Origin: Escherichia coli
GTDB taxonomy: Bacteria; Pseudomonadota; Gammaproteobacteria; Enterobacterales; Enterobacteriaceae
NCBI RefSeq assembly: GCF_048403405.1
Contig: NZ_CP183129.1
Strand: one strand, 5' to 3'
Length of the DNA: 64,000 bases
The position numbers were made by a program. This document shows, piece by piece, positions 23,418-27,224 of this stretch (its first letter is position 1; every line of letters starts with the position of its first letter).

Positions 23418-26400
23418 TGACACTAACGCCCGCACATTGCTGCGGGCTTTTTGATTCATTTCGCAAATGTGCTGACATTTTCCCCTCTAATCCGTACCAT
23501 ACACGCCACAGTTTTTATATCAGATTTCTTATGCTGGGCGTTCCGGCATGACGCATACTCTTCTGATGCCATATAACGAATTGAGTCGCTTTTAAATGTC
23601 GCAAAATCAAGAAATTAGTAAGAAAGAACAATACAACCTGAACAAATTACAAAAACGTCTGCGTCGTAACGTGGGCGAAGCCATTGCTGACTTCAATATG
23701 ATTGAAGAAGGCGATCGCATCATGGTTTGCCTCTCCGGGGGTAAAGACAGCTATACCATGCTGGAGATTCTGCGCAATTTGCAGCAAAGCGCGCCAATCA
23801 ATTTTTCGCTGGTGGCTGTCAACCTCGATCAAAAACAACCGGGCTTCCCGGAACACGTTCTGCCCGAGTATCTTGAAAAGCTGGGCGTTGAGTACAAGAT
23901 TGTGGAAGAGAACACTTACGGTATCGTGAAAGAGAAGATTCCGGAGGGCAAAACCACTTGCTCACTGTGTTCTCGTCTTCGTCGCGGTATCCTTTATCGT
24001 ACCGCAACGGAACTGGGAGCGACGAAGATCGCGCTGGGTCACCATCGTGACGATACCCTGCAAACGTTGTTCTTAAATATGTTCTACGGCGGCAAGATGA
24101 AAGGTATGCCTCCGAAACTGATGAGCGATGATGGCAAACATATCGTGATTCGTCCGCTGGCCTACTGCCGCGAGAAAGATATTCAGCGTTTTGCCGATGC
24201 AAAAGCGTTCCCGATTATTCCGTGCAACCTGTGCGGTTCACAGCCTAACCTGCAACGTCAGGTGATTGCTGACATGTTGCGTGACTGGGATAAACGTTAT
24301 CCGGGGCGTATCGAGACGATGTTCAGCGCGATGCAGAATGTGGTGCCGTCGCATCTGTGCGATACCAACCTGTTCGATTTCAAAGGCATTACCCACGGTT
24401 CTGAAGTGGTTAACGGGGGTGATCTGGCGTTTGATCGCGAAGAGCTCCCTCTACAACCGGCGGGTTGGCAGCCTGAAGAAGATGAAAATCAGTTGGATGA
24501 GTTACGACTGAATGTGGTTGAAGTGAAATAACCAGGATAGCGCCCGATGCGCAAGCTTATCGGGCTACTCTTATGGAGGCCGGATAAGACGCGGCCAGCG
24601 TCGCATCCGGCAATCCCGAAGAAGATGTTTACTCTTGCACCCTGCAATTCAACATTTCATTATTTTAATAACCGCACCCGGCACGTTTTTCCTTTAATCT
24701 TCCCGCCCTGTAACTGTTTCCATGCTTTATGAGCAACAGCCTGACGCACCGCGACATAGACATGCGCCGGATGCACGGCGATTTTGCCAATATCTGCGCC
24801 ATCAAGCCCGATATCTCCTGTCAGCGCACCTAATACATCACCCGGGCGCATTTTGGCTTTTTTCCCGCCATCGATACATAACGTTGCCATTTCGGCTTCC
24901 AGCGGCACAATGGAACTATTAACTGGTGGCGTTTGCCAGTTAAGTTTTATCTGCAACATGTCAGAAATGATATTGGCCCGCTGTGCTTCTTCCGGGGCAC
25001 AGAAACTGATCGCCAGACCGCTATTTCCTGCACGCGCTGTACGACCGATGCGATGTACATGAACTTCAGGATCCCACGCCAGCTCAAAGTTCACCACCAG
25101 CTCAAGCGATTTAATATCCAGACCTCGCGCAGCAACATCAGTCGCAACCAGTACACGGGCGCTACCGTTAGCAAAACGTACCAGGGTCTGATCGCGATCG
25201 CGTTGCTCCAGATCGCCGTGTAACGACAATGCACTTTGCCCTACTTCATTCAGCGCGTCGCAGACAGCCTGGCAATCTTTTTTGGTATTGCAAAACACCA
25301 CACAAGAGGATGGCTGATGCAAGCTTAATAACCGTTGCAACAGAGGAATTTTGCCTTTACTGGATGTCTCATAAAATTGTTGTTCAATGGGTGGCAAAGC
25401 ATCTGTTGAGTCAATTTCAATCGCTAAAGGATCGCGTTGCACTCGTCCGCTGATTGCGGCGATGGCTTCCGGCCAGGTTGCCGAAAACAGAAGCGTCTGT
25501 CGAGATGCAGGCGCAAAACGGATGACATCATCAATGGCATCGCTAAATCCCATATCCAGCATGCGGTCGGCCTCATCCATCACCAAAGTATTCAGCGCAT
25601 CCAGTGATACCGTGCCTTTTTGCAAGTGATCCAGCAAACGACCCGGCGTTGCCACGATAATATGCGGCGCATGTTGCAACGAATCACGCTGCAAACCGAA
25701 CGGTTGACCACCGCACAACGTCAAAATTTTAGTATTTGGTAGAAAACGCGCCAGCCGACGCAATTCACCTGCCACCTGATCCGCCAGTTCACGCGTAGGA
25801 CACAGCACTAAAGCCTGGGTTTGAAATAGCGACGCATCAATTTGCTGTAACAAGCCGAGGCCAAAAGCCGCCGTTTTGCCGCTGCCGGTTTTCGCCTGCA
25901 CGCGAACATCTTTTCCGGCAAGGATCGCCGGAAGCGCGGCGGCCTGCACCGGCGTCATGGTTAAATAACCCAACTCATCAAGGTTCGTGAGTTGGGCGGG
26001 AGGCAAAACATTCAGGGTAGAAAAAGCGGTCACAATCTATTCTCGTGGTCATCGACGCAAAGTCAGCAGGCGCGTATCCTCGCAGATCTACGCTCACGAT
26101 GCGACAATTTAATCGGTTCTTCATCGGGTGGTGGGTCAGGCATGGGTTGCGGGCGAGGGATCGGATCGGGCACTGGAACAGGATCGCCAGGAATCGGTTC
26201 AGGGACAGGAATTTGCAAATAAATAAGTGTCGTCATATTTCCCTCCGGTCATTGGGTGGACTCTTAAAGGGTAGACGCTGATAAATAACAGGCAAAATAA
26301 ATATCCTCCGGCATAGCCGGAGGTTTTTCAAATGCGCCTATAAGGCTCTCTTACCAGCCGCGCCCTAACAGGCGCACACGATCTGACATTTGCATCCAAC

Positions 26401-27224
26401 TTCGTTACTTACGGCCCGTAAACGGGCTGCCCGGATAGGGAATCGATAACTGCTCTCCCATTTTATCCTCTTCAAGCTGGTGCTTTATGTAATCCTGTAT
26501 CTTCGCCGTGTTCTTACCCACCGTATCGACGTAGTACCCTCTGCACCAGAACTCCCTGTTCCTGTATTTGAATTTCAAATCACCAAACTGCTCGTAAAGC
26601 ATCAGACTGCTTTTCCCTTTCAGATATCCCATAAAGCCGGATACGCTCATTTTGGGCGGGATCTCCACAAGCATATGGATATGATCTGCACAGCATTCAG
26701 CTTCCAGAATCCGTACACTTTTCCACTCACACAGCTTTCTCAAAATACTGCCTATTGCTCTACGCTTCTCTCTGTAGAACACCTGTCTTCGGTATTTTGG
26801 CGCAAAAACTATGTGATATTTACAGTTCCATCGGGTGTGCGCTAAGCTCTTTTCGTTCCCCATTGGGACCCCCTTTCGATTTCTTGTTTGACACTTGCAG
26901 TTGCCAGACCGCAAGGTGTTTTAACAAATCAAAAGGGGTTTTAATAACTGGCTTAAAGCTGAAAGCTTTCCGGAACCCCCAGCCTAGCTGGGGGTTTTCT
27001 GTGCACAAAAAAGCCGACTCATCAAAGTCGGCGTCGTACGAATCAATTGTGCTATGCAGTAATTCAAAAAAGGAAGTAAGACAATATGGAGCGCAACGCC
27101 CATCGCTTGACGTTGCATTCACCTGCAAGAGAGATATTGCCCTGAATGGGTAGAGAGTTTATTGACTTCGCTCAAACTTTGCGGCGTTTTTGTATACAGA
27201 CAGCTGGGAAAATTTCTTTTGTTA

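What the first reader, a model, noticed from the sequence alone, without database searches (positions are those of the whole stretch)
26292..27000. IS200-family element inserted immediately 3' of the FnrS terminator
A 152-aa Y1 transposase nearly identical to recalled Salmonella IS200 TnpA is flanked by the structured ends typical of IS200. The element-proximal palindrome (26974-26996) lies within about 10 nt of the FnrS terminator U-run, so the insertion may alter the FnrS 3' end. It also separates fnrS from the dbpA upstream region.
Basis: partly seen in the sequence, partly recalled or inferred. Interest (0 to 1): 0.5.

Follow-up and report, generated by a model that had tools for sequence, protein, structure and literature searches.

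The report
IS200C inserted in FnrS terminator tail
A known 711-bp E. coli insertion sequence (IS200C) sits inside the T-run of the FnrS small-RNA terminator and cuts that run from 8 to 6; this is an ordinary strain polymorphism, but it shows that IS200 elements insert at terminator-shaped DNA.

Summary
Window 26296-27006 (minus strand) is a complete 711-bp IS200C. It has a 152-aa Y1/HUH transposase identical to RefSeq WP_000526135.1, the IS200 left-end hairpin and 5'UTR stem-loop (Rfam STnc490, 143 bits), and a right-end hairpin. It lies between fnrS (Rfam, 135 bits) and ynaL-dbpA.

About 95% of 5,392 complete E. coli genomes have the empty site, GTCGGC-T8-GC. Here it reads GTCGGC-T6 | IS | TT-GC. 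The element is therefore inside the FnrS U-tract, not after it, and leaves 6 T.

Only 8 of 5,426 genomes carry IS200C at this site. They fall into four flank haplotypes with different junctions (T6, T7, T9), so independent hits are likely.

The position is not accidental. In 100 independent IS200-group insertions from many phyla, 89% of left ends abut a GC hairpin plus T-run ending TTnTT. Controls gave 2-21%. That target resembles the element's own right end.

Terminator preference has partial precedent (IS1541; a 2025-26 preprint). A weakened FnrS (poly-U below the 7 reported necessary for Hfq) is plausible but untested.

Verdict: a known element at a typical site, of low to moderate interest.

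The parts
26296..27006 (-). Complete IS200C insertion sequence, 711 bp. On the minus strand it reads GTGCACAGAAAACCCCC ... GGAGGATATTTATT.
   Evidence: The gap relative to the empty site in BL21 is exactly 711 bp. The same 711-bp unit with the same ends occurs at the upp, rph, pgi and dbpA sites in other E. coli genomes. The ends are ambiguous by about 2 T.
26974..26996 (.). Left-end hairpin (IS200 nt about 12-34). It is the published bidirectional terminator that blocks transcription entering from outside.
   Evidence: Perfect 10-bp arms with a 3-nt loop. It folds in both strands. Its function comes from the literature: it terminates about 85% of impinging transcripts (PMC5435999; PMC4513863).
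26873..26996 (-). [quoted passage not shown]
   Evidence: Rfam RF01405, 143.4 bits, full length 1-124.
26854..26943 (+). Predicted art200 antisense sRNA. Coordinates are inferred by mapping the Salmonella coordinates (start at nt 153/154, 90 nt long).
   Evidence: Mapped from PMC4513863. A stem-loop followed by UUUUAAU is present on the plus strand. Not measured in this strain.
26405..26863 (-). tnpA, 152 aa plus stop codon. It encodes a Y1/HUH single-strand DNA transposase, with HUH at H61-I62-H63 and the conserved Tyr in the motif RGYY.
   Evidence: Supported (PDB 2ec2 at 4e-23; ISHp608 TnpA 2a6m at 4e-19). Identical to WP_000526135.1.
26296..26323 (-). Right end: hairpin CCTCCGGCTATGCCGGAGG followed by ATATTTATT. 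It is terminator-like on both strands.
   Evidence: The right end terminates in GGATATTTATT in all 31 complete copies examined.
27007..27126 (-). fnrS sRNA gene. The terminator hairpin is at 27032->27013 and the remaining T-run at 27012->27007, which is 6 T instead of 8.
   Evidence: Rfam RF01796, 134.8 bits. The terminator scan shows a tail of TTTTTTGTGC. The empty site has T8.
26292..26295 (-). Displaced distal part of the original site: the last two T of the FnrS T-run (26295-26294), then GC.
   Evidence: Junction comparison with BL21 and EC190329.
26063..26236 (-). ynaL, a proline-rich 57-aa ORF. It is the first gene downstream of the IS, and dbpA (26033->24660) follows it.
   Evidence: ORF list. 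RefSeq annotation of the identical locus in strain 4621.

Best explanation
SHOWN. Window 26296-27006 is an intact copy of the known E. coli insertion sequence IS200C (IS200/IS605 family, IS200 group). It is oriented in the same direction as fnrS. It entered the T-run of the fnrS intrinsic terminator without a detectable target duplication. The site changed from GTCGGC-T8-GC to GTCGGC-T6 | IS | TT-GC. It is a rare polymorphism, found in 8 of 5,426 complete genomes. These fall into four different local haplotypes with slightly different junctions.

SHOWN. This placement is the rule for the IS200 group. Left ends abut a GC-rich hairpin followed by a T-run ending in TTnTT.

INFERRED MECHANISM. The Y1/HUH transposase moves the element as single-stranded DNA ('peel and paste', as established for IS608 and ISDra2). 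It integrates 3' of a short T-rich target presented next to a DNA hairpin. That target resembles the element's own right end, which is a hairpin followed by ATATTTATT. The element's top strand lies on the strand with leading-strand composition, which is the lagging-strand template. This fits the family.

INFERRED CONSEQUENCES.
- FnrS now has a 6-U tract followed by GUGCAC. That is below the 7 or more U reported necessary for stable Hfq binding, so FnrS may terminate less well or bind Hfq less well.
- Any read-through should stop at the IS left-end hairpin and give 3'-extended RNA that does not bind Hfq.
- ynaL-dbpA is insulated from fnrS read-through.
- The IS itself should be nearly silent, through its upstream terminators, the sequestered Shine-Dalgarno sequence and art200.

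The confidence of 0.85 applies to the identity of the element, the junctions and the terminator-associated placement. Hairpin recognition by the transposase (about 0.6) and a functional effect on FnrS (about 0.4) are less certain.
For: Identity of the element. RefSeq names the element.

Insertion and junctions. Empty-site frequency: T8 is exact in 5,135 of 5,392 genomes and T9 in 72.

Rarity and multiple backgrounds:
- One search lists 9 genomes, and one of them (L003) carries the IS in dbpA instead.
- The flanks of the IS-bearing genomes differ at SNPs as close as 46 bp from the IS.
- The AST205 flanks are identical to those of IS-free BL21.
- The IS copies differ from each other at 1-7 positions.

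Terminator targeting:
- 89 of 100 unique left-end flanks have a hairpin of at least 5 bp plus a T-run. Controls gave 2.4% at random positions, 6.6% at random TT|G positions and 21% at T-run ends elsewhere. The binomial probability is 5e-48.
- Flank positions -5 to -1 are T in 97, 88, 66, 99 and 100% of flanks. The -1 value is fixed by how I defined the IS start.
- Other E. coli copies lie after the upp, rph and pgi terminators.
- One copy lies inside the dbpA coding sequence at a hairpin followed by TTATT.
- Head-to-tail IS1541 dimers in Y. pestis are joined exactly at a right end.

Strand: GC skew of the window plus strand is negative in all 8 bins.

Literature:
- IS200 anatomy (PMC4513863).
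- The left-end hairpin stops about 85% of incoming transcripts (PMC5435999).
- A poly-U of at least 7 is needed for Hfq binding, and read-through sRNAs do not bind Hfq (PMC5558911; PMC4509938).
Against: - No expression data exist for this strain. A 6-U tail may still terminate and bind Hfq adequately. The threshold of 7 U comes from SgrS and RyhB, not from FnrS.
- The AST205 and UCPROB alleles keep 7 and 9 T, so any effect depends on the allele.
- The total T counts in those two alleles (9 and 10) exceed the common T8. This needs T9/T10 parental alleles, slippage, assembly error in a homopolymer, or flexible cleavage.
- Target recognition of the hairpin is inferred from genomic survivors. Selection for harmless, transcriptionally shielded sites could contribute.
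- The exact ends cannot be told apart from a 709-bp element with a 2-bp TT duplication.
Confidence: 0.85

Rival explanations
1. There was one ancestral insertion at fnrS. It later spread to other lineages by homologous recombination, or was lost from almost all lineages by precise excision, rather than the terminator being hit several times independently.
For: All eight copies have the same orientation and nearly the same position. The IS copies of AST205 and MEW differ by only 1 nt. Homopolymer length differences can arise by slippage or assembly error. Precise excision is a known property of this family (PMC2806898).
Against: There are four distinct flank haplotypes, with SNPs 46-181 bp from the IS, and the AST205 flanks equal IS-free BL21. 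The IS copies differ at up to 7 positions, including the left-end terminal GTGAAC versus GTGCAC. The junctions differ (T6, T7, T9). Only 8 of 5,426 genomes carry it, so a loss scenario requires a very large number of excisions.
Confidence: 0.2
2. The association of IS200 left ends with terminators is produced by selection. Insertions land anywhere T-rich, and only those just downstream of terminators persist, because they are harmless and shielded from outside transcription. The transposase does not recognise the hairpin.
For: The preprint interprets upstream terminators as a niche that limits transposase expression. Intergenic sites downstream of genes are the least harmful. All the data here come from surviving genomic copies.
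Against: The junction falls at nucleotide precision within or at the end of the T-run in about 90-98% of 100 sites across phyla. The hairpin is enriched 4-fold over other T-run ends. One gene-disrupting insertion inside the dbpA coding sequence uses a hairpin plus TTATT. Tandem IS1541 copies use the hairpin plus TTATT of another copy's right end as their target.
Confidence: 0.25
3. The insertion is functionally neutral for FnrS. Six U plus the intact hairpin still terminate transcription and bind Hfq, and the IS is simply a silent passenger.
For: The hairpin and the whole FnrS body are unchanged, with no differences for 181 bp. The site still passes a terminator scan. Crystal-structure work cited shows Hfq's proximal face binding the 3' poly(U) tail (that the bound ligand is about six U is my recollection of that work, not stated in the text read). 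The allele persists in at least four sequenced genomes of one lineage.
Against: sRNA terminators characteristically have at least 7 T, and shorter tails lose Hfq binding in SgrS and RyhB. T8 or T9 is conserved in at least 96% of E. coli genomes. Position 7 is now G, which should weaken termination and place non-U residues at the 3' end.
Confidence: 0.55

Closest known systems
IS200 of Salmonella enterica / IS200C of E. coli (IS200/IS605 family, IS200 group)
   Same: - A single tnpA gene of 152 aa encoding a Y1/HUH transposase.
- A left-end terminator hairpin at about nt 12-34.
[quoted passage not shown]
- An art200/STnc490 region.
- A right-end hairpin.
- A length of about 707-711 bp.
- No inverted terminal repeats.
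- The protein is identical to RefSeq WP_000526135.1.
   Different: Nothing differs structurally. The window copy has one substitution relative to the copy in strain 4621: G instead of A at IS nt 130 (window 26877). Only the insertion site is specific.
IS1541 of Yersinia pestis
   Same: - 144 of 152 aa identity in TnpA and about 87% nucleotide identity.
- The same end structures.
- The same placement directly after a hairpin plus T-run.
- From memory only, since the paper is not held: Odaert et al. 1998 proposed rho-independent terminators as IS1541 hot spots.
   Different: It has a different host, a much higher copy number, the left-end leader GTGCCCAG instead of GTGCAC, and a length 1 bp shorter by my end definition (one search gives 710 against 711; the 709 column counts one T fewer at the right end).
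IS608 (H. pylori) and ISDra2 (D. radiodurans)
   Same: Homologous Y1 transposase fold by sequence (2a6m at 4e-19, 2xm3 at 2e-16). They have subterminal hairpins, insert 3' of a short specific sequence without duplication, and move through single-strand intermediates.
   Different: They carry tnpB and use defined 4-5 nt targets (TTAC, TTGAT) with no reported hairpin requirement. Here the apparent target is TTnTT next to a hairpin, and no tnpB is present.
Hfq-dependent sRNA terminators with engineered short poly-U (SgrS, RyhB; Aiba laboratory)
   Same: An intrinsic terminator whose U-tract falls below 7.
   Different: Those are laboratory constructs with measured loss of Hfq binding. This is a natural FnrS allele with no measurements.

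Membership tests
IS200 group of the IS200/IS605 family | Encodes a Y1 (HUH plus catalytic Tyr) transposase of about 150 aa | tested here: met
   Pfam PF01797 at 4.4e-38, covering model positions 2-121 of 121. NCBIfam NF033573 at 147.7 bits against a cut-off of 55. HUH (H61-I62-H63) and the Tyr of RGYY align with 2ec2.
IS200 group of the IS200/IS605 family | tnpA only (no tnpB), in an element of about 0.7 kb | tested here: met
   The inserted segment is 711 bp with a single long ORF on the element's coding strand.
IS200 group of the IS200/IS605 family | [quoted passage not shown] | tested here: met
   Full-length Rfam STnc490 match. The positions agree, to within 1 nt, with the published nt 12-34 and 69-138.
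IS200 group of the IS200/IS605 family | Insertion without target-site duplication, 3' of a short specific sequence abutting the left end | tested here: inconclusive
   The T count is conserved (6 + 2 = 8), so there is no duplication if the ends are GTGCAC...TATTTATT. The dbpA site gives the same result. A 709-bp element with a 2-bp TT duplication fits equally well, because both junctions are T-rich.
IS200 group of the IS200/IS605 family | Mobile: the same unit occurs at other loci, and empty sites exist | tested here: met
   5,384 genomes have the empty site. Identical 711-bp units lie at upp, rph, pgi and dbpA. There are about 1,200 plasmid records with matches.
IS200 group of the IS200/IS605 family | Transposition through single-stranded DNA circles | not testable with these tools
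   Inferred from IS608 and ISDra2. Only the orientation on the lagging-strand template is consistent with it.
FnrS sRNA (Rfam RF01796) | Sequence and structure match the FnrS covariance model, in the conserved zntB-fnrS-(ynaL)-dbpA context | tested here: met
   134.8 bits against a gathering score of 60, covering model positions 1-119. Synteny is shown.
FnrS sRNA (Rfam RF01796) | An Hfq-type intrinsic terminator with at least 7 U | tested here: not met
   Only 6 T remain before GTGCAC. T8 is the standard allele. This is a property of the allele and does not argue against the gene being fnrS.

The most novel reading that the evidence does not exclude
IS200-group transposases may select targets by shape. 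On this reading, an intrinsic-terminator-like DNA hairpin followed by TTnTT is taken as target because it mimics the element's own right end. These elements would then recurrently land in, and trim, the poly-U tails of terminators. Those include the terminators of Hfq-dependent sRNAs such as FnrS and of attenuators such as rph-pyrE. The result would be natural hypomorphic regulatory alleles. The T6 fnrS allele in this window would be one such case.
Probability: 0.25. Interest if true: 0.55.

Novelty: already known. Interest (0 to 1): 0.3.

Why it matters
For this locus the result mostly closes a question: the feature is a correctly recognised, already annotated IS200C copy.

Two points have some wider use.

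First, the exact junction shows that a mobile element can shorten the poly-U tail that Hfq-dependent sRNAs need. That gives a natural FnrS allele (T6) which could be compared with the T7, T8 and T9 alleles to test the U-length rule outside SgrS and RyhB.

Second, the cross-phylum junction survey gives a nucleotide-level target description for IS200, an element whose transposition has been very hard to observe. The target is a hairpin plus TTnTT that resembles the right end. The survey also separates the external terminator from the element's own left-end terminator, which genome-wide statistics can conflate.

Tried and rejected
- I looked for a second IS200 copy in the window by searching for the left-end hairpin with up to 3 mismatches. 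There is none.
- One search counts 9 genomes with the full query. One of them (EC190329, L003) has the IS inside dbpA and an empty fnrS site, so the count is 8.
- BLAST matches that extend about 26 nt beyond the left end in other genomes (H65-H69) suggested that a piece of the fnrS terminator had travelled with the IS. I rejected this. They are the upp, rph and pgi terminators, which happen to have similar GCCGAC...GTCGGC stems.
- Rfam reports STnc490 on the tnpA-sense strand. The published STnc490/art200 is antisense. I therefore treat the Rfam match as evidence for the left-end and 5'UTR structure only, and I mapped art200 from the paper.
- I considered a 2-bp TT target duplication with a 709-bp element. 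The sequence does not exclude it. It is disfavoured only by the family mechanism.
- I tried to read Odaert 1998 (PMC106867) and Beuzon & Casadesus 1997 (PMC146608). Neither is held, so the IS1541 precedent rests on my memory.
- A literature search for IS200 together with FnrS found nothing relevant.
- The sigma-70 scan found no promoter-like site in 25900-27400, so I make no claim that the IS supplies a promoter to ynaL-dbpA.
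Full report
**1. What is in the sequence**

The window is E. coli. The region is 99.9% identical to strain 4621 (NZ_CP103479). On the minus strand the gene order is as follows:
- zntB (28205->27222)
- fnrS (27126->27009; Rfam RF01796, 134.8 bits, full length)
- a 711-bp block
- ynaL (26236->26063)
- dbpA (26033->24660)

The block contains one intact ORF of 152 aa at 26863->26405.
- It matches NCBIfam transpos_IS200 (E 1.9e-43, 147.7 bits against a cut-off of 55).
- It matches Pfam Y1_Tnp over the whole model (E 4.4e-38).
- It matches solved IS200/IS605 transposases: 2ec2 at 4e-23, ISHp608 2a6m at 4e-19 and ISDra2 2xm3 at 2e-16.
- The HUH motif (H61-I62-H63) and the conserved Tyr in RGYY are present.
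- The protein is identical to WP_000526135.1, which RefSeq names 'IS200/IS605-like element IS200C family transposase'.

Upstream of the ORF, Rfam's STnc490 model matches full length (26996->26873, 143.4 bits). This match covers two structures. One is the perfect 10+3+10 hairpin at 26974-26996 (none expected by chance). The other is the long stem-loop that sequesters the ribosome-binding site (fold).

At the other end there is a second hairpin, CCTCCGGCTATGCCGGAGG, at 26323->26305. It is followed by ATATTTATT.

These positions agree, to within one nucleotide, with the published anatomy of Salmonella IS200 (PMC4513863):
- terminator hairpin at nt 12-34
- stem-loop at nt 69-138
- tnpA start codon about nt 145
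- art200 antisense RNA starting at nt 153/154

Mapping that paper onto the window puts art200 at about 26854-26943 on the plus strand. This is an inference.

Rfam reports STnc490 on the tnpA-sense strand, whereas the published RNA is antisense. I therefore use the Rfam match only as evidence for the structure.

**2. It is an insertion, and where exactly it lies**

Alignment with IS-free BL21 and direct reading of the junctions give these sequences on the minus strand:
- Empty site: GTCGGC-TTTTTTTT-GC-CTGTTATTT
- Window: GTCGGC-TTTTTT | GTGCACAGAAAACCCCC...GGAGGATATTTATT | TT-GC-CTGTTATTT

The element is therefore 26296-27006 (711 bp). The T count is conserved (6 + 2 = 8), so there is no duplication.

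The same 711-bp unit with the same ends occurs at other E. coli loci. All 31 complete IS200 and IS1541 copies I examined end in GGATATTTATT.

Because T residues flank both junctions, a 709-bp element with a 2-bp TT duplication fits the sequence equally well.

Either way, the FnrS terminator now has six T followed by G.

**3. How common the allele is**

The uninterrupted site is present in 5,384 of 5,392 complete genomes that have the locus. The T8 form is exact in 5,135 genomes and the T9 form in 72.

The IS is at this site in 8 of 5,426 genomes:
- 4621, MS 69-1, TUM1226 and OX030728, which are identical to the window
- AST205
- MEW
- UCPROB-001 and UCPROB-002

A ninth hit, EC190329, has the IS inside dbpA instead.

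The IS-bearing genomes carry four different flank haplotypes, with SNPs as close as 46 bp from the element. The AST205 flanks are identical to IS-free BL21 over 892 + 888 bp. The IS copies differ from each other at 1-7 positions. The junctions also differ: T6|GTGCAC, T7|GTGCAC and T9|GTGAAC.

Several independent insertions into the same T-run are the most economical reading. A single origin with short-tract recombination is not excluded.

The T totals of AST205 (9) and UCPROB (10) exceed 8. T9 parental alleles exist. Slippage, assembly error or flexible cleavage could also account for the excess.

**4. Why it is there**

I scanned one genome per species for the 19-nt core of the left-end hairpin. 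I then read the sequence immediately outside each left end.

The loci come from the following taxa:
- E. coli
- Yersinia pestis (IS1541)
- Vibrio
- Brenneria, Dickeya, Edwardsiella and Pluralibacter
- Oxalobacter
- Mailhella and Desulfovibrio
- Bacillota and Peptococcaceae MAGs
- Saccharibacteria and Elusimicrobia

Of 100 unique flanks, 89 have a stem of at least 5 bp followed by at least 4 T in the last 8 nt. Most of the other 11 have imperfect stems plus a T-run. The controls were as follows:
- 2.4% at random positions in the same loci
- 6.6% at random TT|G positions
- 21% at T-run ends elsewhere

The binomial probability against the 21% control is 5e-48.

The last five flank bases are T in 97, 88, 66, 99 and 100% of flanks, that is TTnTT. 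The -1 value is fixed by how I defined the IS start.

The element's own right end is a hairpin followed by ATATTTATT, which ends in TTATT. The preferred target therefore looks like a right end.

Three observations argue that this reflects targeting and not only survival of harmless insertions:
- The junction is placed with nucleotide precision.
- The copy in EC190329 disrupts the dbpA coding sequence exactly after CCCAACTCA...TGAGTTGGG-TTATT, which is a terminator-shaped sequence inside a gene.
- Head-to-tail IS1541 dimers in Y. pestis are joined exactly at ...GGATATTTATT|GTGCCC. One copy has used another copy's right end as its target.

Other E. coli IS200C copies sit directly after the upp, rph and pgi terminators (T7|GTGCAC). 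Each is co-oriented with its upstream gene.

GC skew of the window plus strand is negative in all eight 8-kb bins. The element's top strand therefore has leading-strand composition, which makes it the lagging-strand template. From my own knowledge of Ton-Hoang et al. 2010, this is the orientation expected for single-strand transposons of this family. I did not check that paper here.

**5. Prior knowledge**

- Insertion 3' of a short specific sequence by single-strand 'peel and paste' is established for IS608 and ISDra2.
[quoted passage not shown] It interprets this as limiting transposase expression.
- From memory, Odaert et al. 1998 proposed rho-independent terminators as IS1541 hot spots. 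That paper is not held.

The preference is therefore not new in kind. What this analysis adds is the junction-level rule, the resemblance to the right end, and the separation of the external terminator from the IS-internal left-end terminator.

I found no paper linking IS200 and FnrS.

**6. Likely consequences (inferred, not measured)**

- sRNA terminators characteristically have at least 7 T. A poly-U of at least 7 is reported necessary for stable Hfq binding, and tails shortened below that lose Hfq binding and function in SgrS and RyhB (PMC5558911).
- sRNAs that are 3'-extended by read-through do not bind Hfq (PMC4509938).
- In this window the tract is U6 followed by GUGCAC. The rest of FnrS is unchanged, with no difference for 181 bp.
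- A partial loss of FnrS function is therefore plausible. I put this at about 0.35-0.45.
- Read-through would meet the IS left-end hairpin, which is reported to stop about 85% of incoming transcripts (PMC5435999).
- The right-end hairpin is terminator-like on both strands. ynaL-dbpA is therefore insulated from fnrS and from tnpA transcription.
- No sigma-70-like promoter was detected in 25900-27400.
- The AST205 (T7) and UCPROB (T9) alleles should be less affected or unaffected.

**7. Verdict**

The element is a known, annotated IS at a site typical for its group, so it is already known. Interest is low to moderate (0.3). It rests on the natural T6 FnrS allele and on the clear target rule, not on the element itself.

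Noticed in passing
L003 (E. coli EC190329, NZ_CP142949), locus 1505-2282: IS200C interrupts the dbpA coding sequence about 70 nt after its start. The insertion point is exactly after an in-gene hairpin (CCCAACTCA...TGAGTTGGG) followed by TTATT. The fnrS site in this strain is empty.
   Followed up: partly
L128 (E. coli WP9-S17-ESBL-11, NZ_AP022287), between rph and pyrE: IS200C sits directly after the hairpin plus T7 that follows the rph stop codon. From my own knowledge this is the pyrE attenuator region. The insertion could uncouple pyrE from the rph promoter.
   Followed up: no
L101, L102, L118 (Yersinia pestis NCTC5923): Head-to-tail tandem IS1541 copies are joined precisely at ...GGATATTTATT|GTGCCCAG, with one extra T in L118. 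The right end of one copy appears to have served as the target for another.
   Followed up: partly
L007-L088: The 19-nt core of the left-end hairpin, CCCCCAGCTAGGCTGGGGG, is identical in IS200-like elements from very distant phyla: Pseudomonadota, Desulfovibrionales, Bacillota, Saccharibacteria and Elusimicrobia. The 10-12 nt leader before it varies by lineage. This suggests strong constraint or wide horizontal spread.
   Followed up: no
L033, L089-L099 and L036/L091, L069, L076: The same 19-nt hairpin occurs in another context in Ruminococcus and Eubacteriales MAGs (AATAAGCAT-hairpin-TATTTCTT). It also occurs as a right-end-like form (hairpin followed by ATGTTTATT). These are probably ends of related but different elements.
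   Followed up: no
window 26877: The window's IS differs from the copy in strain 4621 by one base: G instead of A at IS nt 130. [quoted passage not shown]
   Followed up: partly
window 21371-21486 (minus strand): A MicC sRNA gene (Rfam RF00121, 105.7 bits) lies 5.5 kb from the finding. It has an intact terminator with a long U-run.
   Followed up: no
window 26237-26295: Only about 55 nt separate the original fnrS T-run from the ynaL start codon, and no promoter-like site was found there. In IS-free strains, ynaL-dbpA may partly depend on transcription that reads through or overlaps fnrS.
   Followed up: no
L004 and L006 junctions: The T counts at the IS junctions (7+2 and 9+1) exceed the common T8 of the empty site. 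The cause is unresolved. Candidates are T9/T10 parental alleles, slippage, homopolymer assembly error and variable cleavage.
   Followed up: partly
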